Made by a program: the position numbers and the translations under genes | The notes under the pieces: generated by a model | What the model saw: only the letters and a program-made list of their open reading frames with translations | Told to the model about the DNA's origin: nothing | Database searches by the model: none | Part shown: piece after piece, positions 4,004 to 28,871 of the stretch | How the letters are laid out: each line of letters starts with the position of its first letter | How positions within the stretch are numbered: position 1 is the first letter of the stretch | Source: Alphaproteobacteria bacterium | Lineage (GTDB): Bacteria; Pseudomonadota; Alphaproteobacteria; TMED109 | Length of the DNA stretch: 64,000 bases | Reading direction: 5' to 3' | NCBI GenBank assembly: GCA_965203385.1 | Contig: OZ241893.1 | Location: forward strand, 269,986 to 333,985

Positions 4004-4980
4004 TCGATAAGCGCGAAATCCTCACGATAGCCCAGCAGATGTCGCTCACGCCCCACATCGTGGAGAAGGACTATGTACTCGGCTGGATGCTCGCCGGCAT
4101 TTATGGGCACGGAGGTCTCGCGGAGAACTGGATATTCAAAGGTGGCACGTGCCTGAAGAAATGCTTCTTCGAGACCTATCGATTCTCGGAGGATCTCGAT
4201 TTCACGCTTCGCGAACCGCAGCATCTTGACGCCGACTTCTTGAAGGGCGCATTTTCCGAAATTGGTGAATGGGTCTACGACCAAACCGGCATTGAGATTC
4301 CGGCCGACAAACAGGAATTCGATATCTACGAGAACCCACGGGGCCAATTCTCGTGCCAAGGCAAGATCAGTTACAAGGGCCCCGTCTCATCGACCCACGC
4401 CTTCCCGCGTATCAAGCTTGACTTGACCGCCGACGAACGGATCGTTCTCCCACCGATCCACGTGCAGATTTTCCATCCATACAGCGATGCTCCGGAAGGT
4501 GGCATCGAAGTCCTGACCTACGATTACACCGAGGCATTCGCGGAGAAGTTCAGAGCGCTCGCGGAACGGACGCGCCCACGCGATCTCTATGACGTCGTAC
4601 ATCTCTACCGGAATACCGAGGCACGTCCGGAACCGAAGCGCTTTATGGAAATCCTGCGCGCCAAGTGTGAATTCAAGGGCATCAGCGTTCCGCGCATGAC
4701 CGATCTTGAACCGCACCGTGCGGAACTTGAGAATGGTTGGATTCACATGCTGGAGCACCAACTCCCCGCGCTGCTCCCGGTCACGACGTTTTGGAACGTG
4801 CTCCCGGAAATCTTCGATTGGCTCCAAGGCGCCGTCGCTCCGCCGCTTACGGCGATGCCTGTCAGTGTCGGCAACACGCTCATCCGCGAGCGTGTAGTCG
4901 ATCTGCCCGCGGGCAGCCGAGGACAGAGTCTCATCGAGATGATCCGCTTTGCTGCTGCAAACGCTCATGAGGCGCGCTGA
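4000..4980 (+). pseudogene. abiEii: AbiEii/AbiGii-family nucleotidyltransferase toxin, 5' portion, reading frame interrupted by an IS element after codon 321
   Basis: GTG at 4000 lies in frame with ORF 3883..4980. EKDYVLGW, FKGGTCLKKCF and RFSEDLDF are AbiEii hallmarks. The last 6 codons and the stop appear to be IS-derived (see IS at 4963..6889). Confidence 0.75.
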
Positions 4981-4996
4981 CCCTCACCCCAGTACA

Positions 4997-5034
4997 TGAA
5001 CACCCGGTCGGGCCGGGCCGAGCTCTAGCGTGGC
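4997..5034. repeat. left (sub)terminal inverted repeat of the IS110-family element
   Basis: TGAACACCCGGTCGGGCCGGGCCGAGCTCTAGCGTGGC matches the reverse complement of 6844..6881 with 2 mismatches. Confidence 0.8.
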
Positions 5035-5385
5035 TTTTTTCGCGGCTGGGTCTTCGTAACTGCACTTCGCGGACAAGGATTTTCCCTACCTTTCGCGGCG
5101 GTTTCTCGCTTTCGTTCACAGGTGCTCCCGGCGGATTTGGAGAGGGCTCCAGAACCGGGATACACTGGGTGCTGGAGACGGAAAGGAGAACGAATTTTTA
5201 GTGTTGGCCTAGACCACGCCAGCAAACTGTTCCGGGTGACCAGGTAGCGTACCCCTGTATGTACCCATCCTTTGCGGATGAGGACGAACGGCAAAATGTA
5301 TGCACCGCGGTTAGCCGAATGGCCACCTTGAGTGCTTCCCCCGGTCACCCACTCCGTCTCCAGCCATCTCACTGGGAGACGACTT

Positions 5386-6853
5386 ATGATTACCGATACC
5401 TTGCATGTTGTCCATTCGCGCGCTGCCGGAGTGGACGTGCACAAGCACCAGCTGACGGCCACCGTCCGCTTGGCCACGGGTGCTGGCGAACCGATGTGCG
5501 AGACGCAGACGTTCCGTGCTTTGGGGCCTGGTCTGGATGCCTTGGCCGAATGGTTGACTTCGCATGCCGTCACCGCGGCGGCCATGGAAGGAACGGGTGT
5601 GTACTGGCGGGCCCCGCTGGACCGGCTGGAGGCCGCCGGGATCGAAGTGCAGTTACTGCACGCCCATCACGTCAAGCAGCTGCGGGGGCGCAAGACCGAC
5701 GTGGAGGACAGCCGCTGGCTGGCGCGCGTCTGTCAGTTCGGACTGTGCCGTCCGAGTCTGGTGCCGAATCAAGAATTCCATGGCCTGCGGCGGATGAGCC
5801 GCTATCGCCGCCAACTGGTGCAGAAACGTAGTCAGACACGGAACCGGATTCAGAAGGAGATCGACGATGCCGGGGTTCGGATCGGCGGCATCCTCTCGGA
5901 TGTCTTCGGCAAGAACGGCCGGATCATTCTGGAGGGCCTGGCGCGAGGCGAGGACCGCGAGACGATCCTCTCGCGTCTGACTCCGCACGTGGCGGAGAAA
6001 ATCAAGCTGCTCGGGGAGGCGCTCACCCTGAAGCTTAGCTGCTCGGGTCGTATGATTCTCAACCACCTGATGACGGACGAGCGCGCCGAACAGGCTCGCA
6101 TCGCGGCCGTCGAGGCGTTTGGCCACCGCCCACAGGCCGTACGCGTTTCGGCCGTACGCTTCCCAGCTGATCCTCCTCCAGACCCTGCCCGGGATCGACC
6201 GGATCGGCGCCGCCGCGATCCTCGCCGAGATCGGCGGTCCCGACGTCACGCCGTTCGCGTCCGCCGAGGCGTTTACGGCCTGGGCCGGACTGGCACCAGG
6301 CAATCACGAGAGCGCCGGCAAACGCCGGAAAGCCACCACGCTCAAGGGCTCCCGCTACCTGCGCACCCTGCTGGTGGAGGCCGCCCACGGAGCCGCACGT
6401 ACCAAGAACTGTCAATTCGCCAGCTACCGGAAGGTGTTGACCGCACGCCGTGGCTATAAGCGCGCCATCGTGGCCACCGCCCACAAGATGGCACGTGCTC
6501 TCTATGCCATGCTGCGGGACGATGTCCCGTATCGCGACCCCGACATCGATTACGAAGCCCTGCTGGTCGATCGCAATGCCCCCCGGTGGCTGCGACAACT
6601 CAAAGAGTGCGGCGTACTCAAGCCGGGAGTGCCAGGACGGCCCGACCCAAGTGCGGCGTGTGGGCGACCACACCTTCCGAATCGACTGGAGTGCCAGGAC
6701 GGCCCGACCCAAACCGGCCTGAAACTTCCTCTGCGCACGATCCCGGACCACCGGCCCGTTGTCCAAAAAACAGGGGAAGACAACACCGCCAAGCCCCGAG
6801 ATCCGGCGCAGATATCGACGACCCAAAGCGTGCGCTCTAGGCCGCCACGCTAG
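5386..6853 (+). pseudogene. IS110-family transposase, apparently frameshifted near 6100-6130
   Basis: The N-terminal DEDD-type half (GVDVHKHQL...MEGTGVYW) lies in the ORF 5332..6459 frame. The C-terminal half (LLQTLPGIDRIGAAAILAEIGG...AGLAPGNHESAGK) lies in the ORF 6119..6853 frame. A frame change is needed to join them. Confidence 0.75.
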
Positions 6854-7484: not shown

Positions 7485-8586
7485 ATGCAACCAGAGTGTA
7501 CCCCGAAGCAGTTGTGTTTTGAAGGCCTGGGTCGCCGTCGAGTGGAGGGGTGTTTCGACGGCGGTCGGCTGACGACGGACGGCGGCGTACTGCTCCTGCG
7601 GGAGGTCGACCAGCGGTTCCGCGTGACGGAGCGTCTGGCTGGCTGCTTCCAGGATCATCGCGGATCATCGCGCAGAAACGCGCATTGAGCATCGTCTGGA
7701 GACGCTGGTCGCCCAGCGGGTACTGGGGCTGGCGGCGGGGTATGAGGATTTGAACGATCACGACCGTCTGCGCACGGACAGCCTGCTGGCGCTGGCAAGC
7801 GGGTGCCAGGATCTCACCGGGGAACAGCGCCGCCGGGAGCGGGACCGGGGACAGGCGCTGGCGGGTTCCAGCACCCTGAACCGGCTCGAGCTCAGCGAGC
7901 CGGACACGGCGGCCGGAGACCGGTACAAGAAAATCGCGGCCGACCCGGCGGCGATGGACTCGCTGCTGGTGCAATTGTTCCTCGAGGCTCATGACGAACC
8001 GCCCGGGGAGATCGTGCTCGATCTGGATGCGACCAACGATCCGCTGTACGGGAACCAGGAGGGGCGGTTCTACCACGGCTAGTACGACGAATACTGCTAT
8101 CTTCCGTTGTACATCACTTGCGGCGACTTCGTCCTGTGCGCCCGGCTGCGTCCGGCCGATGTCGATCCGGCGAAAGGATCGGTGGAGGAACTGAAGCGGA
8201 TCGTGGCCCAGATCCGCGCCGTCTGGCCGAACCTCCCGATCCTGGTGCGCGGCGACGCCGGCTTCTGCCGCGATGAACTCTTGACCTGGTGTGAAGAGAC
8301 TGGCCTCGACTACGTGTTCGGTCTGGCCCGCAATAACCGTCTGGAAAAGTGGCTGGCGAAGGCGCTGCACAAGTCCCGGCGCCGCTGCGCCGCCACGGGG
8401 CAGGCGTCCCGGCGGTTCCGGGACCGGCGTTATCGGACCCAGAAATCCTGGAGCCGCACCCGCCGGGTGGTCGGCAAGGCCGAGTGGCTGCCGGGACTGA
8501 GAGGCGCGAATCCGCGTTTCGTCGTCACCAACCTGCCGGCGGATTCGGTCGGCGCACAGCCGCTGTACGAAAAAGTGTACTGCGCC
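7485..8586 (+). pseudogene. IS1380-family transposase, 5' part (10-bp duplication, in-frame TAG, then truncated by IS21 insertion)
   Basis: MQPECTPKQLCFEGLGRR...TTDGGVLLLREVD is followed by a frame break at the tandem GGATCATCGC duplication. LDLDATNDPLYGNQEG..FYHG is followed by TAG at 8080..8082. The same frame then continues through YDEYCYLPLY...EKVYCA. Confidence 0.85.
7652..7671. repeat. 10-bp tandem duplication (GGATCATCGC x2) that frameshifts the IS1380 transposase
   Basis: Deleting one copy restores FQDHRAETRIEHRLETLVAQRVLGLAAGYEDLNDHD in a single frame. Confidence 0.85.
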
Positions 8587-8793
8587 TGTTGGCGGCGAAA
8601 TAAAACGGCGGGATTCCGGCGGTAAGCCGCGCTTTTCCGAAGGTCGTTTCTTTCCCTATTGTACGACTGCCGGAGCTCCTGCCGCCGGGTGGCAGGAAGG
8701 CGCGTTCGGCGCCGAACGGATCACGGGTGGCTCAGCGGCCTCCTTGAGCCGGCCGGCCGCTGCCTTCGTTGGTTCCGGCCCGTCTGGCCGCTG

Positions 8794-8805
8794 CGTTACG
8801 TAACG
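8794..8805. promoter_or_regulatory. 12-bp perfect palindrome CGTTACGTAACG downstream of the 100-aa ORF
   Basis: Read directly. The same core recurs at 9156..9173 and in copy B. Confidence 0.4.
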
Positions 8806-8826
8806 GTGCTACAGCGGGTACCCGCA

Positions 8827-9129
8827 TCACCCGTCGCGACCGAACCCGCGGGGCAGTTCCTGTTCTGCCAGGGCTTCGAGGTCGAGGTCGTCAAGGGCTT
8901 CGATCGCCTGGTCCAGGAGTTCTGCGGTCGCCGTCGTCTCCAGCGCCTCTGGCAGGGCGTTCCGCCAGTCACGGTATTCCTCCCGGATCGCGATGATGGC
9001 GTCGATGGCGTCGTGCAGCCGCTGCCGGCGCGAGCGCCGGTCCGGCGGCGGGCGCCGCGCCGCCGGTGACTGACCCTCGCGCCGGCGCTGACGAAAGCGC
9101 CGTTGCCGTTCGGCGTTGGACAGTGCCAT
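8827..9129 (-). CDS. hypothetical 100-aa protein carried by the IS21-family element
   Basis: Internal ATG of ORF 8827..9528 (MALSNAERQRRFRQRRREG...PRGFGRDG). It is identical in both copies and has a basic N-terminus and an acidic helical C-terminus. Confidence 0.5.
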   Translation of the reverse strand: MALSNAERQRRFRQRRREGQSPAARRPPPDRRSRRQRLHDAIDAIIAIREEYRDWRNALPEALETTATAELLDQAIEALDDLDLEALAEQELPRGFGRDG

Positions 9130-9155
9130 CGGGTTGCCTTTCTTGATCCCTTGCG

Positions 9156-9173
9156 CCCCGTTACGTAACGGGG
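9156..9173. promoter_or_regulatory. 18-bp perfect palindrome CCCCGTTACGTAACGGGG upstream of the 100-aa ORF (candidate operator)
   Basis: Read directly. It lies 27 bp upstream of the ATG at 9129. Confidence 0.4.
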
Positions 9174-9269
9174 TCCGGAGACCGGGACTTCCGGCCGCCG
9201 CGCAGGCTTCGGCTGGCCGTCGGCACAGGGGTGCGCCGTGACCCCGCCGGCCCGGGCGTTCCGGCGGCG

Positions 9270-10133
9270 TCAGCCTGTCGCGGCGGCGCAGATGACGTCG
9301 TTCCAGTCGGCGTGTTCGGGCGGACGCCGTCGCTGGAACGCGACCTGCGAGGGGACCTCGAGTTGACGGCGCAAGGCTTCGGCCTGGCGCTCTCCGGCCT
9401 CGTCGTGGTCCTGTGCGAGGACGACGGTGCGGACGTTGGGTAGGGTGCGGGCGGCGAGTCCGATCTGCTCGCGTTGTCGGCGCGAGGGGGCGCCGGCGGT
9501 GGAGAGGAAGGCCTGGCTGGGGTGGCACTGCTCAATCTGGGCCAGGCTGAGGGCGTCGACGGCGCCTTCGGTGATGACGAGGGTTTTCAGGTCGGCGGCG
9601 TGTCCGGCGCGGACGGCGAACAGGCTGCGGGAGCCGCCGGTGGCGAAGCGTCTCGCGCCGTCGGGCGGGCCGATCTCGAAGCCGGTGAGGCGGCGGTGGC
9701 GGTCGCGGTGGGCGAAGAGGACGTGGCCGTGGCGGTCGCGGCGGATCAGCGGGCGGGCGGCGGCGAGCGTCTCCGGGCGGATGCCGCGGCCGACCAGCCA
9801 GGCCGGCGCCGGGTCCGGTACGGCCGCGTGCCAGTGGCGGCGGAAGTCGCGCGCGGTGCCCGCGGGTTTGCCGTAGCGGGTGCGGATCTCGGCGAAGGAG
9901 AGGCCGCGACGGAGCAGGAAGTCGATCGCGGTACCGTGGTCATCGCTATCGAGGGTACTGAAGTAGACCCAGTGTCCGTTGGGGCACAGCTTCGTGACGA
10001 GTTTCGCCTGGCCCGGCGCGCGGAGCACGGGGTTCGCGCGGGTCGAGGCCTGGGGATCGCGGACGTATCCCCAGTCCGCCGCGATGCCCTCGAGCGGCCG
10101 GCGCTTGAGCGCGTCGAAGTCGACGTAGGTCAT
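9270..10133 (-). CDS. Toprim-domain protein with DUF3991-like N-terminal region (primase-like)
   Basis: The 287-aa ORF starts MTYVDF... and its ATG overlaps the istB stop (ATGA). VITEGAVDALS and LAQDHDEAG look like Toprim Glu and DxD motifs. Confidence 0.65.
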   Translation of the reverse strand: MTYVDFDALKRRPLEGIAADWGYVRDPQASTRANPVLRAPGQAKLVTKLCPNGHWVYFSTLDSDDHGTAIDFLLRRGLSFAEIRTRYGKPAGTARDFRRHWHAAVPDPAPAWLVGRGIRPETLAAARPLIRRDRHGHVLFAHRDRHRRLTGFEIGPPDGARRFATGGSRSLFAVRAGHAADLKTLVITEGAVDALSLAQIEQCHPSQAFLSTAGAPSRRQREQIGLAARTLPNVRTVVLAQDHDEAGERQAEALRRQLEVPSQVAFQRRRPPEHADWNDVICAAATG

Positions 10134-10831
10134 CCGGCTTCGCGCCGGGTGCGCCACGAATCACCGTCGATGGTGATGAGGGCGGCGTCGTGCATCAGTC
10201 GGTCGACGGTGCCGGCGATGCCGGCGGCGCTGGGGAAGACGCGGTCCCACTGGGCGAAGGCCAGCGTGGTGGTGACCAGGGTGGAGCGGCGCTGGTAGCG
10301 CCGCGAGACGAGGGCGTAGAGGAGGTCGGCCGCGGGGCTCTTGAGGGTCACATATCCGATCTCGTCGAGGACCAGCAGGCGGGGCCGGGCGAGGATTCCG
10401 AGGCGGCGGCGCAGTTCGCTTCTCGAGGAGATCTCGACGAGTTTGTCGAGCAACTCCGGCGCTTTCTCGAAGCGGACGGTGTGGCCGTGCAGGAGCGCCT
10501 GGTGCGCGACGTTGGCGGCGATCATGGTCTTGCCGGTGCCCTGTCCGCCGACGAGCACGGCGTTGTCGGCCCGCTCGATGAAGGCGAGGCTCATCAGGGC
10601 CTCGACGCGGTCGCGGCTCAGGTCGCGCGGCCAGGTCCAGTCGAAGTCCGCCAGCGGCTTGAAGGCCGGCAGCCGCGCCCCGGCGCGGCGGCGGTCGTAG
10701 CTGCGGGTGTGGCGCACCCGTTCCTCGCTGGCGATCAGTTCCTCGACCCAGCCGGCGCTGCCGACCTCCTCCCAGCGTTCGAGCAGTCCGCGGAGGCCGA
10801 GGGCGGCGGCCCGTTTCCTGAGGTCGCTCAT
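10130..10831 (-). CDS. istB: IS21-family helper ATPase IstB
   Basis: 233 aa with a Walker A (VGGQGTGKT) and Walker B (LLVLDEIGY). The start overlaps the istA stop (ATGA). Confidence 0.9.
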   Translation of the reverse strand: MSDLRKRAAALGLRGLLERWEEVGSAGWVEELIASEERVRHTRSYDRRRAGARLPAFKPLADFDWTWPRDLSRDRVEALMSLAFIERADNAVLVGGQGTGKTMIAANVAHQALLHGHTVRFEKAPELLDKLVEISSRSELRRRLGILARPRLLVLDEIGYVTLKSPAADLLYALVSRRYQRRSTLVTTTLAFAQWDRVFPSAAGIAGTVDRLMHDAALITIDGDSWRTRREAG

Positions 10832-12321
10832 GACGCGTCCCGGTCGGCCGCGGCGGGCCGGTCGTAGGCGTCGAGGCCGGTCGCCCGGGGAGTCGTGCCG
10901 CGGCCGTCGCGGTCGTCGTCGGTGAGGCTGACAGGCGGCAGGCCCCGCTGGCGGCGGCGCTCCTCGAGGATGGCGCGCACCGTTTCGGGGTGATATGACC
11001 CGCGATCGTGCGCCATGGCGATCCCCCGGTCGACCTCGTCGGCGCCGTGCGTGTCGAGCAGCTTGGTCAGGATCCGGGCGCAGTACGTGACGTTCCGGCC
11101 CCGATGCCCGGCGTGCGCGAGCATCTCCTCCGCCCGCGGCACGGCGCGCAGCAGCCGGTCGCGCAGGCTCATGGCCCGGCCCTGCCGCTTGCGCGCCGCC
11201 AGCGCCCGGGCATGCTCCGGGTCGCTGACGGCCTGCTGCCGGTCGTAGCAGCGCCGGTGGCGCGCGACCTCGCGGGTACCGTCGAGGAGGCGGACGGTGC
11301 TGCGGTCGGCGGCGAGGGTCAGCGTCGCTCCGGCGAAGTCGGGCGGGACGCTGTAGTCGTTCGTATCGAACCGTGCGTAACAGGTCCGGTCGATGCGCGC
11401 CGGGCGGATCTCGTGGCACGAGAAGGGTGCGTCCGGCAGCGGCACCAGCATCGGCTTTTCCCGCTCGTAGGCGTCCCGGACGAGCTGGCGGTCGTCGTCC
11501 GGCCAGGGCCGCTCGGCGGCGATGCCGGCGCACCACGCCCGGGCCGCGGCGTTGAGTTCGTCGAGCGGGGCCGAGAGGTCGCGACCGGCGAAGAAGCTGG
11601 TGCGCACGAAGCGGACGCGGCGTTCCACGCGCCCCTTCTCCTGCGGCCGCCGGGGCCAGGCGGCGCTCGGCTCGAAGGCGTAGTGGGCGGCCAGCGCGAG
11701 CAGGGTCGAATGGAAGGTGACGGCCTTGCCCCGGCGCGTGATCACGGCGCTCTTGAGGTTGTCGAACAGGAGCCTTCTGGGCACACCGCCGAACGCTGCG
11801 AAGGCCTCGACATGGCCCTGCAGGAAGCTCGGCATCCGCGCGTCGTAAAACAGGCTGAGAGAGGTCTGGCGCGAATAGCTGAGGGTCACCAGCAGCCCCA
11901 TCAGCGGGCGCCGCGCCTGGCCGATATCGACCTTCCCGAACTCGGCCCAGTCGACCTGCGCCTGCTCCGCCGGCAGGAAGCGGAGCCGCAGCGACGGCTC
12001 GGGCCGCCGGGCGGGCCGGAGGTCGAGGGCGCGCAGGCTGTGGCGAAAGTGATCCTCCCCGCCCTGGTAGCCCCGCGCCTTGACCTGCCGCCAGAGCGTG
12101 CCGGCCGGCAGCCGCGGCTCCTCTTCGAGCTGCTTCCGGATGAAGGGCACGAAGGTGTCGATGAACTTCGCCCGCGGCCGCCGCTCCGCGCCGGCCGCCC
12201 GCAGCGCCCGCGTCACCGTACCGTGGTGTACGCCGAGATGCCGCGCGATGGTCCCGACCGGCCAGCCCTCGGCCCGCGACAGCCGCACGATCGTCGACCG
12301 CATCTCCTCGTCGATAGCCAT
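10828..12321 (-). CDS. istA: IS21-family transposase IstA
   Basis: 497 aa with an N-terminal HTH (GWPVGTIARHLGVHHGTV) and a DDE integrase core (QVDWAEFG...LFDNLKSAV). Confidence 0.9.
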   Translation of the reverse strand: MAIDEEMRSTIVRLSRAEGWPVGTIARHLGVHHGTVTRALRAAGAERRPRAKFIDTFVPFIRKQLEEEPRLPAGTLWRQVKARGYQGGEDHFRHSLRALDLRPARRPEPSLRLRFLPAEQAQVDWAEFGKVDIGQARRPLMGLLVTLSYSRQTSLSLFYDARMPSFLQGHVEAFAAFGGVPRRLLFDNLKSAVITRRGKAVTFHSTLLALAAHYAFEPSAAWPRRPQEKGRVERRVRFVRTSFFAGRDLSAPLDELNAAARAWCAGIAAERPWPDDDRQLVRDAYEREKPMLVPLPDAPFSCHEIRPARIDRTCYARFDTNDYSVPPDFAGATLTLAADRSTVRLLDGTREVARHRRCYDRQQAVSDPEHARALAARKRQGRAMSLRDRLLRAVPRAEEMLAHAGHRGRNVTYCARILTKLLDTHGADEVDRGIAMAHDRGSYHPETVRAILEERRRQRGLPPVSLTDDDRDGRGTTPRATGLDAYDRPAAADRDAS

Positions 12322-12354
12322 GAAATCGCCTCCCGTTGTGTCTCCATGACGCGA

Positions 12355-12795
12355 TCAGGGGTCCGCCAGCACCAGATGCGAGCACACCCGACCGCAGATG
12401 ACGCATCGAGGCACGGATTCGCGCCTCGATCGCGCCGGAAACACCCGACATAGGGGCTCGCGCCGGGGTCCGGAAGAGTGGTCCGTAACGGTTGGGCGGA
12501 AAGCGGCGCCAGCCGGGGCCGAAGGAGCGGCGCGGAACGGGCCCGCAGCCGCCGCCCGGGCGGCCAGGCGCGCCCGGAGCGCCTGACGCCTCCGGTAGCG
12601 CTGCTGACGGATCCGGCCCGTCTCGCGCCCCCGCTCGGTGCGGCGGTAGCGCCTCCGCGCCGCCCGGCGGTTCTCGACCCGGGACCGCTCGCTGCAGGCC
12701 CGGGAGCAGTACATCTGGCCGCGGTCGCAGGACCGGCAGATCACGACCTGCCGACGGCACCGCTGGCACGGGAACAGGCGTCCGGTCCGGCACAT
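12355..12795 (-). CDS. Cys-rich, Arg-rich hypothetical protein (zinc-ribbon-like) upstream of istA
   Basis: 146 aa. The N-terminus has CQRC-x6-CRSC-x6-C-x3-C and the C-terminus has CVICGRVC. It is intact in both copies. High-GC background makes a spurious ORF possible. Confidence 0.45.
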   Translation of the reverse strand: MCRTGRLFPCQRCRRQVVICRSCDRGQMYCSRACSERSRVENRRAARRRYRRTERGRETGRIRQQRYRRRQALRARLAARAAAAGPFRAAPSAPAGAAFRPTVTDHSSGPRREPLCRVFPARSRRESVPRCVICGRVCSHLVLADP

Positions 12796-13218
12796 CGCTC
12801 CGCCCGAGAGCGAGGTAGACCCAAACGCCGGAATGCCGGATACTCCACGGGAGTTCGGTCCCCGTGACCGGCTCGTTCAGGTGCGGCGCCGGGATTCTGG
12901 GTGAATCTGTGCCGGCGCCGCATCACTCTCTTCTTCCCTGCTGCGATACCACGCGGACACGGCCGTGGCAAAGCCGGCCCGACCGAACCGGCGACAAGAA
13001 CGCACTCGATCTATCCCGAATGGTGCCGTGCGCCCGACCCCTGCCTCAGGCGCGAATCTCACTCCGACACAGTACGGAAATCCGGCCGCCGGCCGGCGCA
13101 CACGATCGATACCCCACGGTACGACTCGACCAATAGGACCGTACAATGGGAAAAGGAACGATCCTGGCCAAAACGCGGCTTACCGCCAGAATCCCGCGCT
13201 TTTTCGCAGCCATCAACA

Positions 13219-13562
13219 GCGCCCGAGGGGACATGGAGAACCGCATCAAGGAACACCAACTCTGGCTCTTTGCCGATCGGACCTCGACCGCCAAGATGCG
13301 TTCCAACCAGTTGCGACTGTACTTCTCGACCTTCGCCGGGATGCTGATGACCCTGCTGCGCCGGTTTGGCCTGTCGGGCACCGCGCTGGCCCGGGCCACG
13401 GCCGACACGATCTGCACCCGGCTGTTCAAGATCGGTACCCGCATCACCGTCAGCCGGCGCCGGATCCGCATCGCGTTCGCGTCGGTCTATCCGCTCCAGT
13501 CGCTGTTCGCCCACGTGCTCGCGGCCCTGCGGGCGCCGCCGGCCCGCGCCGGCCCCGCCTGA
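13219..13562 (+). pseudogene. IS1380-family transposase, 3' part
   Basis: The frame of ORF 13146..13562 reads ..ARGDMENRIKEHQLWLFADRTSTAKMRSNQLRLYFS.., continuing the 5' part across the IS21 insertion. Confidence 0.85.
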
Positions 13563-13875: not shown

Positions 13876-14371
13876 CAAGGGGGCGACCGGCTTCCGATTG
13901 TCCTGTACAATAGCAGATCCCGATGGTCGGCTCCGGAGGAAATCGGCAATCTGATCGCCCCGGCCGGCGTGACCCTCGCACCGGTCCAGTTGCATCAGCG
14001 CTATCTTCTGGCGGATGAACACACACTTCGTGTCACGGGTCTTCCGAAGGACAACCTCGTGACGATGCAGATCGCGCTGGAACAGGGACCGCATGGAGCC
14101 GAATCTGCAAAGGCTGGCCGTGCTGCTGCAGGGCCCGGGCGACGAGAGCCTGAGACGGATCTTCGGGGAATGGGCACAGGGGCTTTTCGAGCGAACCGAC
14201 CTGGCATCGACAGATCCGGGTCTGACCGTTGAGCTTCGTCGTCTCGGAGAAACAGGAGGATTGGAAGAAATGGCAACGATATTCGCTGAAGCTGACGAGA
14301 AAACCATGGCTATCTGCATGATCATCCCGATTTGGGGAGTTTCCGAAGATTTTTCTTCGGAAACGGCGTGA
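13876..14371 (+). pseudogene. Rpn/YhgA-like (PD-(D/E)XK) nuclease/putative transposase, C-terminal fragment with a frameshift
   Basis: RLPIVLYNSRSRWSAPEEIGNLI parallels RLPLVIPIVFFNGRKPWTVPLSIVDMI of the full-length paralog at 60861..61823. It lacks the N-terminal half, and the frame changes near 14090-14100. Confidence 0.55.
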
Positions 14372-22174: not shown

Positions 22175-22610
22175 TTACACACTACTCACTCCTGTCAAGG
22201 GTGCACCGGCGGAAGTCCGTATCGCCCGCCGGTGCGGTCGGGTGCACGGAAAAGTCGCCGCAAGTACTGTACGGCGGGAGATAGCGGCGTTTCTTTGTAA
22301 TACCCGTGAAAGCAGACCTTCCTGGTTCCCGTGCAGCGGACCGTCGGTTGCGTCCAGATCGAGCACGGTCTTCCCGGGCGGTTCATCAGGAGCCTCGATG
22401 AACAACTTCACCGGCAGCCAGTCCATGCCACCGGATCTGCCGCGATTTTCTTGCACCGGCCCCTTGCCGGTTTCCGGCCGCCCGCGTCCGGCACGCTGAT
22501 CTCGAGCCCGGTGTGCTCGACCCCGCCAGCTCTTGTTTCCGGTCACGTTCCCGGCGGCGCTGTTCCCCGATCACGCAAGTCTCCGTTCGACGACACCTTT
22601 GATTTGTCGT
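22175..22610 (-). pseudogene. IS1380-family transposase internal fragment (second, diverged relic)
   Basis: GEQRRRERDRKQELAGSST, LFIEAPDEPPGKTVLDLDATDGPLHGNQEG and FHGYYKE are spread over three frames. The fragment is collinear with residues of the element at 7485..8586 but diverged. Confidence 0.6.
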
Positions 22611-22660: not shown

Positions 22661-22951
22661 ATGCAAATCAGAACCCCGCTGGAACTCGGTCTGGCCATCC
22701 GCGACCGACGTCGCAAGCTCAAGCTGAGCCAAAACGAGCTCGCGCACAAGGCCGGGGTCGGACGACAATGGATCGTCGCCATTGAGCAGGGCAAGCCACG
22801 GGCCGAACTGGGACTGGTGTTTCGCACCCTTGCCGCCTTGGACCTTCCGCTGACAATCCATACCGATTTTCGCCAGCTTTCGCCGAGCGACGACCTGGAG
22901 CCCGTCGATATCGACGCTGTCGTGAACGCCGCTCGAGAAGTTCAGAAATGA
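22661..22951 (+). CDS. hipB: HipB-type XRE antitoxin
   Basis: The ATG at 22661 lies in ORF 22331..22951. LSQNELAHKAGVGRQWIVAIEQGK is the HTH. Its stop overlaps the hipA start (ATGA). Confidence 0.75.
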   Translation: MQIRTPLELGLAIRDRRRKLKLSQNELAHKAGVGRQWIVAIEQGKPRAELGLVFRTLAALDLPLTIHTDFRQLSPSDDLEPVDIDAVVNAAREVQK

Positions 22952-23841
22952 CCGGAGTTCTTGTGGTCGTGGCCGACCGCCGGATCATGGGCGAGATTCA
23001 GCGCAACCGGCGGGGCCGGCTGACGTTCATTTACGATGACCGCTGGCGGTCCATGGATGCAGCTTATCCGCTCTCCCTTTCCATGCCGGTCTTGGTCGCC
23101 GAACATGCGCACGCCAGGATCGAGCCCTGGCTCCGGGGACTGCTGCCCGACAACGAAATTATCCTGGACCGCTGGGGGAAGCGGTTCCACGTATCGTCCC
23201 GCAACGCCTTCGCCTTGCTTGCCGCAGTTGGTGAGGACTGCCCTGGCGCCATCCAGCTGGTGCGGCCGGACCGGGTTGACGACGTGCTTCAGGGGGATGA
23301 CCAGCAAATCGAATGGATGACCGAAGCCGATATCGCCGGTCGCCTGCAGCTCCTGAAAGAAGATCAGGCCGCGTGGCGGATCGCGGGCGATATCGGTCAA
23401 TTCAGCCTGGCTGGTGCGCAGCCGAAGACGGCGCTCCTCTTCGACGGTCGGCGTTGGGGGGTACCGCACGGCCCGGTGCCAACCACCCACATCCTGAAAC
23501 CACCCGTTCACGGGCTTGACGGCCACGCTGAAAACGAGCACCTGTGCCTGACGCTGGCCCGGACATTGGGACTGCCGGCGGCGCATTCGGAAGTCCGCAG
23601 GTTTGCAGGTGAACCGGCAATCATCGTGGAACGCTACGACCGAATCAGACGCACCGGGTCCATCCGGCGCCTTCACCAGGAAGACATGTGCCAGGTCCTG
23701 GGACTTCCCCCGACAAGGAAATACCAGAACGAAGGCGGCCCCGGATATGCCGAACTGGGGGAAGCGATCCGGGCGCACTCGGGAAGTCCTGGCGAGGATG
23801 CGTGGACGTTCGCACGTGCCATCATGCTGAACTGGATCATC
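22948..23841 (+). pseudogene. hipA: HipA-family Ser/Thr kinase toxin, 5' part (298 codons), interrupted by IS21-family copy B
   Basis: N-terminal coupling domain, then FSLAGAQPKTALL, HILKP and LHQEDMCQVLG. The frame is broken after ..AIMLNWII. Confidence 0.85.
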
Positions 23842-24264
23842 TGTTGATGGCTGCGAAAAAGCGCGGGATTCTGGCGGTAAGCCGCGTTTTGGCCAGGATC
23901 GTTCCTTTTCCCATTGTACGGTCCTATTGGTCGAGTCGTACCGTGGGGTATCGATCGTGTGCGCCGGCCGGCGGCCGGATTTCCGTACTGTGTCGGAGTG
24001 AGATTCGCGCCTGAGGCAGGGGTCGGGCGCACGGCACCATTCGGGATAGATCGAGTGCGTTCTTGTCGCCGGTTCGGTCGGGCCGGCTTTGCCACGGCCG
24101 TGTCCGCGTGGTATCGCAGCAGGGAAGAAGAGAGCGATGCGGCGCCGGCACAGATTCAGCAAGAATCCCGGCGCCGCACCTGAACGAGCTGGTCACGGGG
24201 ACCGAACTCCCGTGGAGTATCCGGCATTTCGGCGTTTGGGTCTACCTCGCTCTCGGGCGGAGCG

Positions 24265-24705
24265 ATGTGCCAGACCGGACGCCTGTTCCCGTGCCAGCGG
24301 TGCCGTCGGCAGGTCGTGATCTGCCGGTCCTGCGACCGTGGCCAGATGTACTGCTCCCGGGCCTGCAGCGAGCGGTCCCGGGTCGAGAACCGCCGGGCGG
24401 CGCGGAGGCGCTACCGCCGCACCGAGCGGGGGCGCGAGACGGGCCGGATCCGTCAGCAGCGCTACCGGAGGCGTCAGGCGCTCCGGGCGCGCCTGGCCGC
24501 CCGGGCGGCGGCCGCGGGCACGGTCCGCGCCGCTCCTTCGGCCCCGGCCGGCGCCGCTTTCCGCCCAACCGTTACGGACCACTCTTCCGGACCCCGTCGA
24601 GAGCCCCTATGTCGGGTGTTTCCGGCGCGATCGAGGCGCGAATCCGTGCCTCGATGCGTCATCTGCGGTCGGGTGTGCTCGCACCTGGTGCTGGCGGACC
24701 CCTGA
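24265..24705 (+). CDS. Cys-rich, Arg-rich hypothetical protein (zinc-ribbon-like), copy B
   Basis: 146 aa, with 3 aa differences from copy A and no disruption. Confidence 0.45.
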   Translation: MCQTGRLFPCQRCRRQVVICRSCDRGQMYCSRACSERSRVENRRAARRRYRRTERGRETGRIRQQRYRRRQALRARLAARAAAAGTVRAAPSAPAGAAFRPTVTDHSSGPRREPLCRVFPARSRRESVPRCVICGRVCSHLVLADP

Positions 24706-24738
24706 TCGCGTCATGGAGACACAACGAGAGGCGATTTC

Positions 24739-26232
24739 ATGGCTATCGACGAGGAGATGCGGTCGACGATCGTGCGGCTGTCGCGGGCCGAGGGCTGGCC
24801 GGTCGGGACCATCGCGCGGCATCTCGGCGTACACCACGGTACGGTGACGCGGGCGCTGCGGGCGGCCGGCGCGGAGCGGCGGCCGCGGGCGAAGTTCATC
24901 GACACCTTCGTGCCCTTCATCCGGAAGCAGCTCGAAGAGGAGCCGCGGCTGCCGGCCGGCACGCTCTGGCGGCAGGTCAAGGCGCGGGGCTACCAGGGCG
25001 GGGAGGATCACTTTCGCCACAGCCTGCGCGCCCTCGACCTCCGGCCCGCCCGGCGGCCCGAGCCGTCGCTGCGGCTCCGCTTCCTGCCGGCGGAGCAGGC
25101 GCAGGTCGACTGGGCCGAGTTCGGGAAGGTCGACATCGGCCAGGCGCGGCGCCCGCTGATGGGGCTGCTGGTGACCCTCAGCTATTCGCGCCAGACCTCT
25201 CTCAGCCTGTTTTACGACGCGCGGATGCCAAGCTTCCTGCAGGGCCATGTCGAGGCCTTCGAGGCGTTCGGCGGTGTGCCCAGAAGGCTTCTGTTCGACA
25301 ACCTCAAGAGCGCCGTGATCACGCGCCGGGGCAAGGCCGTCACCTTCCATTCGACCCTGCTCGCGCTGGCCGCCCACTACGCCTTCGAGCCGAGCGCCGC
25401 CTGGCCCCGGCAACCGCAGGAGAAGGGGCGCGTGGAACGCCGCGTCCGCTTCGTGCGCACCAGCTTCTTCGCCGGCCGCGACCTCTCGGCCCCGCTCGAC
25501 GAACTCAACGCCGCGGCCCGGGCGTGGTGCGCCGGCATCGCCGCCGAACGGCCCTGGCCGGACGACGACCGCCAGCTCGTCCGGGACGCCTACGAGCGGG
25601 AAAAGCCGATGCTGGTGCCGCTGCCGGACGCACCCTTCTCGTGCCACGAGATCCGCCCGGCGCGCATCGACCGGACCTGTTACGCACGGTTCGATACGAA
25701 CGACTACAGCGTCCCGCCCGACTTCGCCGGAGCGACGCTGACCCTCGCCGCCGACCGCAGCACCGTCCGCCTCCTCGACGGTACCCGCGAGGTCGCGCGC
25801 CACCGGCGCTGCTACGACCGGCAGCAGGCCGTCAGCGACCCGGAGCATGCCCGGGCGCTGGCGGCGCGCAAGCGGCACGGCCGGGCCATGAGCCTGCGCG
25901 ACCGGCTGCTGCGCGCCGTGCCGCGGGCGGAGGAGACGCTCGCGCACGCCGGGCATCGGGGCCGGAACGTCACGTACTGCGCCCGGATCCTGACCAAGCT
26001 GCTCGACACGCACGGCGCCGACGAGGTCGACCGGGCGATCGCCATGGCGCACGATCGCGGGTCATATCACCCCGAAACGGTGCGCGCCATCCTCGAGGAG
26101 CGCCGCCGCCAGCGGGGCCTGCCGCCTGTCAGCCTCACCGACGCCGACCGCGACGGCCGCGGCACGACTCCCCGGGCGACCCGCCTCGACGCCTACGACC
26201 GGCCCGCCGCGGCTGACCCGGACGCGTCATGA
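24739..26232 (+). CDS. istA: IS21-family transposase IstA, copy B
   Basis: 497 aa, with 8 aa differences from copy A by my count. Confidence 0.9.
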   Translation: MAIDEEMRSTIVRLSRAEGWPVGTIARHLGVHHGTVTRALRAAGAERRPRAKFIDTFVPFIRKQLEEEPRLPAGTLWRQVKARGYQGGEDHFRHSLRALDLRPARRPEPSLRLRFLPAEQAQVDWAEFGKVDIGQARRPLMGLLVTLSYSRQTSLSLFYDARMPSFLQGHVEAFEAFGGVPRRLLFDNLKSAVITRRGKAVTFHSTLLALAAHYAFEPSAAWPRQPQEKGRVERRVRFVRTSFFAGRDLSAPLDELNAAARAWCAGIAAERPWPDDDRQLVRDAYEREKPMLVPLPDAPFSCHEIRPARIDRTCYARFDTNDYSVPPDFAGATLTLAADRSTVRLLDGTREVARHRRCYDRQQAVSDPEHARALAARKRHGRAMSLRDRLLRAVPRAEETLAHAGHRGRNVTYCARILTKLLDTHGADEVDRAIAMAHDRGSYHPETVRAILEERRRQRGLPPVSLTDADRDGRGTTPRATRLDAYDRPAAADPDAS

Positions 26233-26930
26233 GCGACCTCAGGAAACGGGCCGCCGCCCTCGGCCTCCGCGGACTGCTCGAACGCTGGGAGGAGGTCGGC
26301 AGCGCCGGCTGGGTCGAGGAACTGATCGCCAGCGAGGAACGGGTGCGCCACACCCGCAGCTACGACCGCCGCCGCGCCGGGGCGCGGCTGCCGGCCTTCA
26401 AGCCGCTGGCGGACTTCGACTGGACCTGGCCGCGCGACCTGAGCCGCGACCGCGTCGAGGCCCTGATGAGCCTCGCCTTCATCGAGCGGGCCGACAACGC
26501 CGTGCTCGTCGGCGGACAGGGCACCGGCAAGACCATGATCGCCGCCAACGTCGCGCACCAGGCGCTCCTGCACGGCCACACCGTCCGCTTCGAGAAAGCG
26601 CCGGAGTTGCTCGACAAACTCGTCGAGATCTCCTCGAGAAGCGAACTGCGCCGCCGCCTCGGAATCCTCGCCCGGCCCCGCCTGCTGGTCCTCGACGAGA
26701 TCGGATACGTGACCCTCAAGAGCCCCGCGGCCGACCTCCTCTACGCCCTCGTCTCGCGGCGCTACCAGCGCCGCTCCACCCTGGTCACCACCACGCTGGC
26801 CTTCGCCCAGTGGGACCGCGTCTTCCCCAGCGCCGCCGGCATCGCCGGCACCGTCGACCGACTGATGCACGACGCCGCCCTCATCACCATCGACGGTGAT
26901 TCGTGGCGCACCCGGCGCGAAGCCGGATGA
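26229..26930 (+). CDS. istB: IS21-family helper ATPase IstB, copy B
   Basis: 233 aa, identical to copy A. Confidence 0.9.
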   Translation: MSDLRKRAAALGLRGLLERWEEVGSAGWVEELIASEERVRHTRSYDRRRAGARLPAFKPLADFDWTWPRDLSRDRVEALMSLAFIERADNAVLVGGQGTGKTMIAANVAHQALLHGHTVRFEKAPELLDKLVEISSRSELRRRLGILARPRLLVLDEIGYVTLKSPAADLLYALVSRRYQRRSTLVTTTLAFAQWDRVFPSAAGIAGTVDRLMHDAALITIDGDSWRTRREAG

Positions 26931-27790
26931 CCTACGTCGACTTCGACGCGCTCAAGCGCCGGCCGCTCGAGGGCATCGCGGCGGACTGGGGATACGTCCG
27001 CGATCCCCAGGCCTCGACCCGCGCGAACCCCGTGCTCCGCGCGCCGGGCCAGGCGAAACTCGTCACGAAACTGTGCCCCAACGGACACTGGGTCTACTTC
27101 AGTACCCTCGATAGCGATGACCACGGTACCGCGATCGACTTCCTGCTCCGTCGCGGCCTCTCCTTTGCCGAGATCCGCGCCCGCTACGGCCAGCCCGCGG
27201 GCACCGCGCGCGACTTCCGCCGCCACTGGCACGCGGCCCTGCCGGATCCGGCGCCGGCCTGGCTGGTCGGCCGCGGCATCCGCCCGGAGACGCTCGCCGC
27301 CGCCCGCCCGCTGATCCGCCGCGACCGCCAGGGCCGCGTCCTCTTCGCCCACCGCGACCGCCACCGCCGCCTCACCGGCTTCGAGATCGGCCCGCCCGAC
27401 GGCGCGAGACGCTTCGCCACCGGCGGCTCCCGCAGCCTGTTCGCCGTCCGCGCCGGACACGCCGCCGACCTGAAAACCCTCGTCATCACCGAAGGCGCCG
27501 TCGACGCCCTCAGCCTGGCCCAGATTGAGCAGTGCCACCCCAGCCAGGCCTTCCTCTCCACCGCCGGCGCCCCCTCGCGCCGACAACGCGAGCAGATCGG
27601 ACTCGCCGCCCGCACCCTCCCCAACGTCCGCACCGTCGTCCTCGCACAGGACCACGACGAGGCCGGAGAGCGCCAGGCCGATACCTTGCGCCGCCAACTC
27701 GAAGTCCCCTCGCAGGTCGCGTTCCAGCGACGCCGTCCGCCCGAACACGCCGACTGGAACGACGTCATCTGCGCCGCCGCGACAGGCTGA
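26927..27790 (+). CDS. Toprim-domain / DUF3991-like protein, copy B
   Basis: 287 aa with ATGA overlap with istB. It has 7 aa differences from copy A. Confidence 0.65.
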   Translation: MTYVDFDALKRRPLEGIAADWGYVRDPQASTRANPVLRAPGQAKLVTKLCPNGHWVYFSTLDSDDHGTAIDFLLRRGLSFAEIRARYGQPAGTARDFRRHWHAALPDPAPAWLVGRGIRPETLAAARPLIRRDRQGRVLFAHRDRHRRLTGFEIGPPDGARRFATGGSRSLFAVRAGHAADLKTLVITEGAVDALSLAQIEQCHPSQAFLSTAGAPSRRQREQIGLAARTLPNVRTVVLAQDHDEAGERQADTLRRQLEVPSQVAFQRRRPPEHADWNDVICAAATG

Positions 27791-27886
27791 CGCCGCCGGA
27801 CCGCCCGGGCCGGCGGGGTCACGGCGCACCCCTGTGCCGACGGCCAGCCGAAGCCTGCGCGGCGGCCGGAAGTCCCGGTCTCCGGA

Positions 27887-27904
27887 CCCCGTTACGTAAC
27901 GGGG
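27887..27904. promoter_or_regulatory. 18-bp palindrome CCCCGTTACGTAACGGGG upstream of the 100-aa ORF, copy B
   Basis: Read directly. Confidence 0.4.
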
Positions 27905-27930
27905 CGCAAGGGATCAAGAAAGGCAACCCG

Positions 27931-28233
27931 ATGGCACTGTCCAACGCCGAACGGCAACGGCGCTTTCGTCAGCGCCGGCGCGAGGGTCAGTCACCGGCGG
28001 CGCGGCGCCCGCCGCCGGACCGGCGCTCGCGCCGGCAGCGGCTGCACGACGCCATCGACGCCATCATCGCGATCCGGGAGGAATACCGTGACTGGCGGAA
28101 CGCCCTGCCAGAGGCGCTGGAGACGACGGCAACCGCAGAACTCCTGGACCAGGCGATCGAAGCCCTTGACGACCTCGACCTCGAAGCCCTGGCAGAACAG
28201 GAACTGCCCCGCGGGTTCGGTCGCGACGGGTGA
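27931..28233 (+). CDS. hypothetical 100-aa protein carried by the IS21-family element, copy B
   Basis: Identical translation to copy A. Confidence 0.5.
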   Translation: MALSNAERQRRFRQRRREGQSPAARRPPPDRRSRRQRLHDAIDAIIAIREEYRDWRNALPEALETTATAELLDQAIEALDDLDLEALAEQELPRGFGRDG

Positions 28234-28254
28234 TGCGGGTACCCGCTGTAGCAC

Positions 28255-28266
28255 CGTTACGTAACG
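28255..28266. promoter_or_regulatory. 12-bp palindrome CGTTACGTAACG downstream of the 100-aa ORF, copy B
   Basis: Read directly. Confidence 0.4.
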
Positions 28267-28478
28267 CAGCGGCCAGACGGGCCGGAACCAACGAAGGCAG
28301 CGGCCGGCCGGCTCAAGGAGGCCGCTGAGCCACCCGTGATCCGTTCGGCGCCGAACGCGCCTTCCTGTCACCCGGCGGCAGGAGCTCCGGCAGTCGTACA
28401 ATAGGGAAAGAAACGACCTTCGGAAAAGCGCGGCTTACCGCCGGAATCCCGCCGTTTTATTTCGCCGCCAACATCATC

Positions 28479-28871
28479 GGCAACACCGATGCACACGCAA
28501 AGAACTTCTCCATGCTCATTGGCGTTCCGGGGCAATCACGCCTGGCGCCACTCTACGATATGGCCAGCATGCTGCCTTACGGCTTCAGTGCCAGAAGCCT
28601 GAAGATGGCAACCAGGATCGGCGGGAAATACCGGCTCGAAGAGGTTGCCTCACGCCATTGGTCACGGTTCGCCGCAGACGTACGCCTGCCGCCCGCTGAA
28701 TTCCTGGACATGGGCGTGGCCATGGCCGAAGCGTTGCCCGCCGCATTTGGCGAGATTGTCGAGCGCGCTCGCGCTGACGGACTCGATCACCCGATCCTGG
28801 AGCGTATGGTCGAGGTCCTGGACGCTCGCTCCGCTCGCTGCGCCCAAGTGCTGAGATCGGCGGCAGATTGA
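28479..28871 (+). pseudogene. hipA: HipA-family toxin, 3' part
   Basis: GNTDAHAKNFSML..LAPLYDM is the catalytic/activation region of HipA kinases. It is in frame with ORF 28512..28871. Confidence 0.85.

What the first reader, a model, noticed from the sequence alone, without database searches (positions are those of the whole stretch)
23837..28478. Second copy has an independent target duplication, showing the whole 4.6-kb unit transposes
Seen: copy B is flanked by TCATC on both sides. Removing it plus one TCATC restores an uninterrupted HipA frame (..AIMLNWII-GNTDAHAKNFS..). Copy A has a different duplication (GCGCC) and restores an IS1380 transposase frame (..EKVYCA-RGDMENRIKE..). Two different clean insertion sites with the same element length mean the full five-ORF unit moved as one piece at least twice.
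Basis: seen in the sequence. Interest (0 to 1): 0.7.

Follow-up and report, generated by a model that had tools for sequence, protein, structure and literature searches.

The report
IS21-type transposon carrying a primase-like gene
The 4.6-kb repeat is a jumping gene of the well-known IS21 family that moved as one piece into two different genes, and unusually it belongs to a lineage that always carries a DNA-primase-like gene and a zinc-finger gene next to the two standard transposition genes.

Summary
Two inverted copies of a 4632-bp element (8587-13218 and 23842-28473) differ by 51 substitutions and no indels. Each has its own 5-bp duplication (GCGCC, TCATC). Removing each copy plus one duplication restores a HipA toxin gene and an IS1380 transposase frame, and both align without gaps across the junction to intact homologues.

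The unit is an IS21-family insertion sequence: IstA transposase, IstB ATPase, TGT...ACA ends and ~80-bp imperfect inverted repeats. It is twice the usual size because three more ORFs lie inside the ends:
- an upstream Cys-rich zinc-finger-like ORF;
- a DUF3991-Toprim protein whose start overlaps the istB stop;
- a small, poorly conserved ORF.

The order ORF1-istA-istB-Toprim recurs in several alphaproteobacterial MAGs, an Acidimicrobiales contig and metagenome contigs. There the 4.0-5.3-kb units have the same kind of ends, and 38 of 44 copies (the window's two included) have duplications of at least 5 bp. One genome holds at least 35 copies. The Toprim protein matches the T7 gp4/DnaG primase core by sequence and by fold, and it evolves under constraint like IstA and IstB. 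Its more distant relatives sit in conjugative elements.

Whole-unit transposition is well supported. A role for the primase-like protein in transposition is inferred, not shown. I rate this a new variant of a known kind.

The parts
23837..23841 (.). Target-site duplication TCATC, left of copy B (last bases of the hipA 5' part)
23842..23921 (+). Left terminal inverted repeat of copy B. It starts TGTTGATGG, has a conserved GCGGGATTC-GGCGGTAAGCCGCG block and a subterminal CCCATTGTAC motif.
24265..24705 (+). ORF1, 146 aa. Cys-rich zinc-finger-like N-terminus (C10xxC13-x6-C20xxC23-x6-C30x3C34), an Arg-rich helical hairpin and a C-terminal CxxC. No Pfam family. Conserved upstream of istA in relatives.
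24739..26232 (+). istA, IS21-family DDE transposase, 497 aa
   Evidence: NF033546 233.8 bits against a cut-off of 160; PF22483 and HTH_23
26229..26930 (+). istB, AAA+ helper ATPase, 233 aa. Its start overlaps the istA stop.
   Evidence: PF01695 171 bits; NF038214 192.8 bits, just under its cut-off of 200
26927..27790 (+). DUF3991-Toprim protein, 287 aa, a DnaG/T7 gp4-type primase-like core. Its ATG overlaps the istB stop (ATGA).
27931..28233 (+). ORF5, 100 aa, no known family. Seen only in this element and in the OZ219747 relatives.
28394..28473 (-). Right terminal inverted repeat of copy B (ends ..CGCCGCCAACA)
28474..28478 (.). Target-site duplication TCATC, right of copy B
8587..13218 (-). 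Copy A of the same 4632-bp element, inverted. Genes on the minus strand: ORF5 8827-9129, Toprim 9270-10133, istB 10130-10831, istA 10828-12321, ORF1 12355-12795. All five ORFs are intact.
8582..8586 (.). Target-site duplication GCGCC, left of copy A
13219..13223 (.). Target-site duplication GCGCC, right of copy A
22948..23841 (+). hipA 5' part (codons 1-298), interrupted by copy B. The 3' part is 28479-28871.
28479..28871 (+). hipA 3' part (codons 299-428 plus stop)
7485..8586 (+). IS1380-family transposase gene, 5' part, interrupted by copy A. It also has a frameshift near 7661 and a TAG at 8080-8082. The 3' part is 13224-13562.
13224..13562 (+). IS1380-family transposase gene, 3' part

Best explanation
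The 4632-bp unit is one autonomous insertion sequence of the IS21 family, and it transposed as a whole at least twice within this window.

Shown here:
- It encodes an IstA DDE transposase and an IstB AAA+ helper.
- It ends in TGT...ACA inside ~80-bp imperfect inverted repeats.
- It makes 5-bp target duplications.
- All five ORFs lie inside those ends.

Inferred from the published IS21 mechanism: IstA synapses the two ends and cleaves them. ATP-bound IstB captures and bends the target and activates IstA. The staggered 5-bp integration is then repaired into the duplication.

The element belongs to a distinct IS21 lineage. An upstream zinc-finger-like gene (ORF1) and a downstream DnaG/T7-type primase-like gene, translationally coupled to istB, are fixed parts of the unit. 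The primase-like gene was probably captured once from a conjugative element.

My preferred guess, not shown, is that the primase-like protein supports the DNA-synthesis step that accompanies transposition: priming at the strand-transfer or copy-out intermediate. ORF1 may act as its nucleic-acid-binding partner or as a regulator.
For: Ends, duplications and restored genes.

IS21 identity: NF033546 at 233.8 bits and PF01695 at 171 bits. The ends share a conserved block, with repeated subterminal motifs. No end-like site lies inside the unit.

The family moves as a unit: 44 copies in 7 genomes (the window's two included), 4045-5347 bp, of which 38 have repeats of at least 5 bp (26 of exactly 5). 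One MAG holds at least 35 copies.

The extra genes are fixed:
- ORF1-istA-istB-Toprim order is kept where IstA is 41-79% identical.
- 63 of 63 Toprim hits of at least 50% identity have istB directly upstream.
- The istB stop and the Toprim start overlap or lie 1 nt apart in 5 of 6 lineages.
- Further examples were found through IstA at 62% and 51% identity.
- Toprim-positive IstAs form one clade of 30 among 122 sequences, excluding the known negatives.

Constraint: Toprim dN/dS is 0.32-0.59, against 0.29-0.58 for IstA and 0.22-0.69 for IstB. Between copies A and B, 28 of 43 coding differences fall at third codon positions and all ORFs are intact.

Primase-like nature:
- The AlphaFold model has pLDDT 87. 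Its top PDB matches are the T7 gp4 primase fragment (E 9e-8) and DnaG RNA-polymerase domains.
- The family profile hits T7 gp4 at E 2.8e-9 and aligns the Toprim Glu and DxD motifs.
- PHROGs returns only DNA primase families.

Origin: relatives at 32-40% identity sit beside T4SS, topoisomerase III and integrase genes without istAB. Plasmid homologues are 'DUF3991 and toprim' proteins, mostly on conjugative plasmids.
Against: Published work describes IS21 as a two-gene element whose reaction was studied with IstA and IstB (PMC10122671). Ordinary IS21 relatives at 47-50% IstA identity lack the extra genes. A primase is therefore not needed for IS21 chemistry in general.

No activity was tested. 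The primase-like protein lacks the Cys/His zinc ligands of true primases in its N-terminal domain. ORF1 has no significant structural match. dN/dS values are compressed by the 72% G+C content. The IstA tree is a simple NJ tree without support values. No empty-site allele was found.
Confidence: 0.85

Rival explanations
1. An ordinary IS21 that picked up unrelated passenger genes (a 'transporter IS'). On this view the primase-like gene, ORF1 and ORF5 are cargo. They serve the host or a plasmid, for example in establishment after conjugation, and play no part in transposition.
For: IS copies with passenger genes are a recognised category (PMC3129680). The Toprim family's other members sit in conjugative elements. 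ORF5 is variable across the family. Canonical IS21 is described as a two-gene element.
Against: Cargo is usually patchy. Here ORF1 and Toprim are kept across IstA divergence down to about 41-51%. Toprim is coupled to the istB stop codon, evolves under the same constraint as IstA and IstB, and is retained in the copies examined in a genome holding at least 35.
Confidence: 0.3
2. The Toprim protein is a nuclease, not a primase. It would cut the second strand at the transposon ends, as TnsA does in Tn7, and so convert the reaction to clean cut-and-paste.
For: Toprim domains also occur in nucleases. The protein lacks a zinc-liganding N-terminal domain. Multi-subunit transposases with a separate end-cutting subunit are known (general knowledge of Tn7).
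Against: Sequence and fold matches cover the primase-specific N-terminal subdomain as well as Toprim: T7 gp4 residues 62-220 and DnaG RNA-polymerase domains. All PHROGs hits are primases. The defence-system library, which holds many Toprim nucleases, matched only a DnaG-like module.
Confidence: 0.1
3. The two copies arose by segmental duplication and inversion, or by movement of a composite unit, not by two independent transpositions of the 4.6-kb element.
For: The copies are inverted and only 10.6 kb apart.
Against: Similarity stops exactly at the TGT...ACA ends. The flanks are unrelated. Each copy has its own matched 5-bp repeat, and each interrupted gene is restored exactly. The outer flanks (GCGCC and TCATC) do not match each other, so a composite did not move. 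A third copy lies in yet another context.
Confidence: 0.02

Closest known systems
Canonical IS21 family elements (IS21, IS5376)
   Same: IstA DDE transposase followed by an overlapping IstB AAA+ helper. Terminal inverted repeats that start TGT and hold several repeats. 5-bp target duplication (PMC10122671).
   Different: About twice the length (4.6 kb), with five ORFs. A conserved zinc-finger-like gene lies upstream and a primase-like gene is coupled to istB. IstA is at most about 47% identical to the best plasmid-borne IS21 found, which has only istA-istB.
Transporter IS (IS copies with passenger genes)
   Same: Extra genes lie inside the inverted repeats and move with the IS (PMC3129680).
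   Different: Here two of the extra genes are fixed across a whole lineage, co-diverge with the transposition genes and are translationally coupled to them. ORF5 alone is not conserved across the family, as ordinary cargo would be.
DUF3991-Toprim proteins of conjugative plasmids and integrative elements (Agrobacterium, Rhizobium and others)
   Same: Same domain architecture and length, at 27-40% identity.
   Different: Those genes sit among T4SS, topoisomerase III or integrase genes with no istAB within 7 kb. The IS-borne proteins form a separate group of 53-98% identity.
T7 gp4 primase domain and the bacterial DnaG RNA-polymerase domain
   Same: N-terminal subdomain plus Toprim fold. The Toprim Glu and DxD align with the corresponding T7 motifs, and a further conserved Asp lies downstream.
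   Different: No Cys4 zinc-binding domain and no helicase or helicase-binding domain. Sequence identity is only about 20%. Activity is untested.
Tn7 and phage Mu transposition systems
   Same: A DDE transposase with an AAA+ target-selecting regulator. In Tn7 there is a further catalytic subunit, and Mu depends on primosome assembly for replication (general knowledge).
   Different: No homology of the extra proteins to TnsA or to Mu accessory factors was found. The analogy is functional only.

Membership tests
IS21 family insertion sequence | IstA-type DDE transposase | tested here: met
   NF033546 233.8 bits against a cut-off of 160; PF22483 and an N-terminal HTH
IS21 family insertion sequence | IstB AAA+ helper ATPase directly downstream of istA | tested here: met
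   PF01695 171 bits against a cut-off of 24. NF038214 scores 192.8 bits, just under its equivalog cut-off of 200. The start overlaps the istA stop.
IS21 family insertion sequence | Imperfect terminal inverted repeats starting TGT, with repeated subterminal transposase-binding motifs | tested here: met
   TGTTG...CAACA ends and an 80-bp repeat at 76% identity. A conserved block at both ends and repeated CC(C/T)ATTGT motifs are seen in seven family members. Binding itself was not tested.
IS21 family insertion sequence | Short fixed target-site duplication (4-8 bp, 5 bp for studied members) | tested here: met
   5 bp at both window copies; 38 of 44 copies (window's two included) have at least 5 bp, and 26 have exactly 5
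IS21 family insertion sequence | Two-ORF organisation of about 2-2.6 kb | tested here: not met
   4632 bp with five ORFs; relatives are 4045-5347 bp. The published description is two ORFs. This feature describes the typical member and does not exclude membership.
Transporter IS (IS with passenger genes) | Extra genes inside the IS ends that are unrelated to transposition | tested here: inconclusive
   The extra genes are inside the ends. Whether they are unrelated to transposition cannot be decided here. Conservation and coupling argue that they are related.
DnaG/T7 gp4-type primase (for the third protein) | Toprim fold with conserved Glu and DxD metal ligands, plus the primase N-terminal subdomain | tested here: met
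   E189 and D244 are invariant, and D242 and D276 nearly so. The family profile aligns to T7 gp4 residues 62-220 at E 2.8e-9. Foldseek gives 1nui at E 9e-8, plus 5guj and 5w33.
DnaG/T7 gp4-type primase (for the third protein) | Zinc-binding domain with Cys/His ligands for template recognition | tested here: not met
   The N-terminal ~90 residues have no conserved Cys. Conserved residues there are H54, W55, D65, G67 and T68. There is no zf-CHC2 hit even at E 10.
DnaG/T7 gp4-type primase (for the third protein) | Primer synthesis on single-stranded DNA | not testable with these tools
   Needs biochemistry
Composite transposon bounded by two IS copies | Matching target duplication at the outer ends of the two IS copies | tested here: not met
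   The outer flanks are GCGCC and TCATC. Each copy instead has its own matched pair.

The most novel reading that the evidence does not exclude
A lineage of IS21 elements encodes its own primase, perhaps working with a zinc-finger partner (ORF1) that stands in for the lost zinc-binding domain. It would use this primase to start the DNA synthesis that completes or copies the element during transposition. That would make it a bacterial insertion sequence that brings part of its own replication machinery.
Probability: 0.3. Interest if true: 0.8.

Novelty: new variant of a known kind. Interest (0 to 1): 0.58.

Why it matters
IS21 is a current structural model for transposases controlled by an AAA+ ATPase, and it is described as a two-protein system. 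Here a whole lineage keeps a primase-like enzyme welded to istB, and it can reach at least 35 copies per genome. That suggests a link between IS21-type transposition and DNA priming, and simple genetics could test it. It also shows a replication gene from a conjugative element being recruited by an insertion sequence. In practical terms, these 4-5-kb units are easy to misannotate as an IS next to a 'toprim domain protein'. They also fragment metagenome assemblies, since many relatives sit alone on ~4-kb contigs.

Tried and rejected
- Segmental duplication or composite transposon: rejected, because similarity stops at the ends and each copy has its own matched duplication.
- Internal IS ends that would make the extra genes an adjacent passenger: none found.
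- Defence-system cargo: PADLOC matched only the DnaG-like part of one reverse-transcriptase system.
- Structured RNAs, promoters or terminators in the element: nothing in Rfam, no sigma-70-like sites, and terminator-like sites at the number expected by chance.
- Near-identical DNA in plasmids: none.
- Empty-site alleles: exact 29-30-nt junction patterns for hipA and for IS1380 found nothing in the metagenome contigs. Exact-protein look-ups with the presumed HipB and with P0001 found nothing.
- N-terminal domain of the primase-like protein as a degenerate CHC2 zinc finger: suggested only by the long Foldseek alignment to 1nui, with no sequence support.
- ORF1 fold: the best match was the YacG zinc finger at E 1.7, which is not significant.
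- Literature searches for IS21 combined with Toprim, primase or DUF3991 found no description of such elements. ISfinder itself could not be queried.
Full report
**1. The observation**

A repeat search finds one large inverted pair, 8587-13219 and 23841-28473, about 99% complementary. Reading the four junctions fixes the limits.
- Copy A is 8587-13218 and copy B is 23842-28473.
- Both are exactly 4632 bp and both run TGTTG...CAACA.
- Copy B is flanked by TCATC (23837-23841 and 28474-28478).
- Copy A is flanked by GCGCC (8582-8586 and 13219-13223).
- The copies differ by 51 substitutions and no indels.

Deleting copy B plus one TCATC gives a 428-aa ORF. It matches E. coli HipA at E 6e-60, and the junction ..NWII|GNTDAHAKNFS.. 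aligns without a gap to ..QWLIGATDGHAKNFS...

Deleting copy A plus one GCGCC joins ..LYEKVYCA|RGDMENRIKE... This matches the IS1380 transposase model in one stretch. It also aligns without a gap to an intact IS1380 transposase from a Stutzerimonas plasmid.

One caveat applies. The IS1380 copy also has a frameshift near 7661 and a TAG at 8080-8082.

**2. What the unit is**

Copy B carries five ORFs on the plus strand.
- ORF1 (24265-24705) has no known family.
- The 24739-26232 product is an IS21-family transposase (NF033546 233.8 bits, cut-off 160).
- The 26229-26930 product is IstB (PF01695 171 bits).
- The 26927-27790 product has DUF3991 and Toprim domains.
- ORF5 (27931-28233) has no family.

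The ends form an 80-bp imperfect inverted repeat at 76% identity. The published description of IS21 is two ORFs, inverted repeats built from multiple repeats, and 5-bp duplications (PMC10122671). So this is an IS21-family element of about twice the normal size.

The conserved end block occurs only at the two termini and nowhere inside. The extra genes are therefore inside the mobile unit. The element is 72% G+C against about 62% for its flanks.

**3. Relatives**

The Toprim protein has 71 database relatives. Those at 53-98% identity often sit on contigs of about 4.1-4.5 kb, as expected for a collapsed repeat.

A scan of one genome per species gave 76 loci. tblastn with the window's proteins shows the order ORF1-istA-istB-Toprim in several Paracoccaceae and other alphaproteobacterial MAGs. 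An Acidimicrobiales contig, too short to show ORF1, has istA-istB-Toprim. In these loci IstA is 41-79% identical and Toprim 54-77%.

All 63 Toprim hits of at least 50% identity have istB directly upstream. None of the 16 loci at 33-41% identity has istA or istB within 7 kb.

Comparing copies within genomes defined 42 further elements of 4045-5347 bp with TGT(T/C)G...C(A/G)ACA ends. With the two window copies that makes 44. Of these, 38 have direct repeats of at least 5 bp: 26 of 5 bp, 8 of 6, 3 of 7 and 1 of 8. This fits a 5-bp duplication plus chance extension. One lineage may be an exception, with 6 bp in three of three copies.

One MAG (OZ219747.1) holds at least 35 copies of a 5.3-kb version. 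A third copy of the window's own element lies in another context on an ENA contig. It is 99.7% identical to copy A, with a damaged right tip. Whole-unit transposition is thus the rule for the family.

**4. Are the extra genes part of the element's machinery?**

- The Toprim start overlaps or nearly abuts the istB stop. The window has ATGA. Four of the five other lineages examined overlap by 11-14 nt or leave a 1-nt gap.
- Toprim dN/dS (0.32-0.59) is in the same range as IstA (0.29-0.58) and IstB (0.22-0.69), and ORF1 is 0.39-0.59. All values are inflated by the G+C bias.
- Between copies A and B, 28 of 43 coding differences are at third codon positions and all ORFs stay open. The two copies therefore come from lineages that diverged while functional.
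- IstA relatives form a group at 59-79% identity, followed by a drop to about 51%.
- IstAs at 62% and 51% identity also have Toprim downstream.
- An IstA at 50% and the best plasmid IstA at 47% do not.
- In a simple NJ tree the Toprim-positive IstAs fall in one clade of 30 among 122 sequences, excluding both known negatives. This fits a single acquisition.
- ORF5 is found only here and in one other lineage, as cargo would be.

**5. What the extra proteins are**

The AlphaFold model of the Toprim protein is confident (pLDDT 87).
- Its best PDB matches are the T7 gp4 primase fragment (1nui, E 9e-8) and the DnaG RNA-polymerase domains of B. subtilis and M. tuberculosis.
- A family profile hits T7 gp4 by sequence alone at E 2.8e-9 over T7 residues 62-220. 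It aligns VVTEGEID with VvtEsAvd, and FDMDEAG with AqdaDeaG.
- The Toprim Glu, DxD and a further Asp are invariant or nearly so.
- PHROGs returns only DNA primase families, and PADLOC only a DnaG-like module.
- The N-terminal ~90 residues lack Cys ligands and give no zinc-finger match.

Distant relatives (32-40% identity) lie among T4SS, topoisomerase III and integrase genes. The plasmid collection holds only 'DUF3991 and toprim' proteins at about 27-38% identity, mostly on conjugative plasmids. The gene was therefore probably captured from a conjugative element.

ORF1 has a conserved pattern C10xxC13-x6-C20xxC23-x6-C30x3C34, an Arg-rich helical hairpin and a C-terminal CxxC. It has no significant structural neighbour.

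**6. Mechanism**

Shown: the unit has IS21 proteins and ends, and it inserts with 5-bp duplications.

Inferred from the literature: IstA synapsis and cleavage, then IstB-directed target capture.

Guessed: the primase-like protein primes DNA synthesis at the transposition intermediate, possibly with ORF1. The rivals are unrelated cargo or an end-cutting nuclease. No tool here can decide between them.

**7. Comparison and novelty**

The element passes every sequence test for IS21 membership except the typical two-ORF, 2-2.6-kb layout. IS copies with passenger genes are a known category (PMC3129680).

Full-text searches found no description of IS21 elements with a Toprim or primase gene. None occurs in 72,556 plasmids. 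ISfinder could not be checked.

I rate it a new variant of a known kind. The transposition claim itself is ordinary. The conserved primase-like and zinc-finger genes are the interesting part.

**8. Dead ends**

No empty-site alleles were found. Nothing turned up in Rfam or in the promoter scan.

Noticed in passing
window 7485-8586: The IS1380 transposase gene hit by copy A is already a pseudogene. It has a frameshift near 7661 and an in-frame TAG at 8080-8082 where an intact homologue has Tyr.
   Followed up: yes
window 22316-22468 (minus strand): A short IS1380 transposase fragment (aa 131-181 of a homologue) lies just upstream of hipB. It explains the 86% inverted repeats between 7818-8063 and 22317-22569.
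   Followed up: partly
window 5332-6853: An IS110-family transposase is split over two overlapping ORFs (DEDD domain in 5332-6459, Transposase_20 in 6119-6853). It is probably frameshifted. The region is a pile-up of insertion sequences.
   Followed up: no
L086 558-5183 (ENA ERZ26693745 contig_180): A third copy of the window's element lies in a different context, next to a xanthine/uracil permease gene. It is 99.7% identical to copy A and 98.8% to copy B. The last 6 bp of its right end are replaced and it has no clean duplication.
   Followed up: partly
L009-L037, L039, L050, L057, L063 (OZ219747.1): One alphaproteobacterial MAG carries at least 35 copies of a 5.3-kb relative, 98-100% identical to each other and some nested in one another. 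Its extra DNA holds two ORF5-like stretches and Toprim-like fragments.
   Followed up: partly
L053, L054, L059 (CBDCRU MAG): All three copies of this more distant relative (4045 bp) have 6-bp rather than 5-bp flanking repeats.
   Followed up: no
L002/L004 about 3099-5359: In a Paracoccaceae MAG the relative's istB is itself interrupted by a different IS21. A separate DUF3991-Toprim gene (314 aa) lies beside yet another unrelated IS21.
   Followed up: no
window 23842-28473 against its flanks: The element is about 72% G+C against about 62% for the surrounding DNA, which suggests a foreign origin.
   Followed up: no
window 60104-60263 and 61889-62048: A 160-nt direct repeat at 88% identity, 1785 bp apart. 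Not examined.
   Followed up: no
window 13881-13963 and 48452-48534: An 83-nt direct repeat at 73% identity, just beyond the IS1380 3' region. It may be another IS-end remnant.
   Followed up: no
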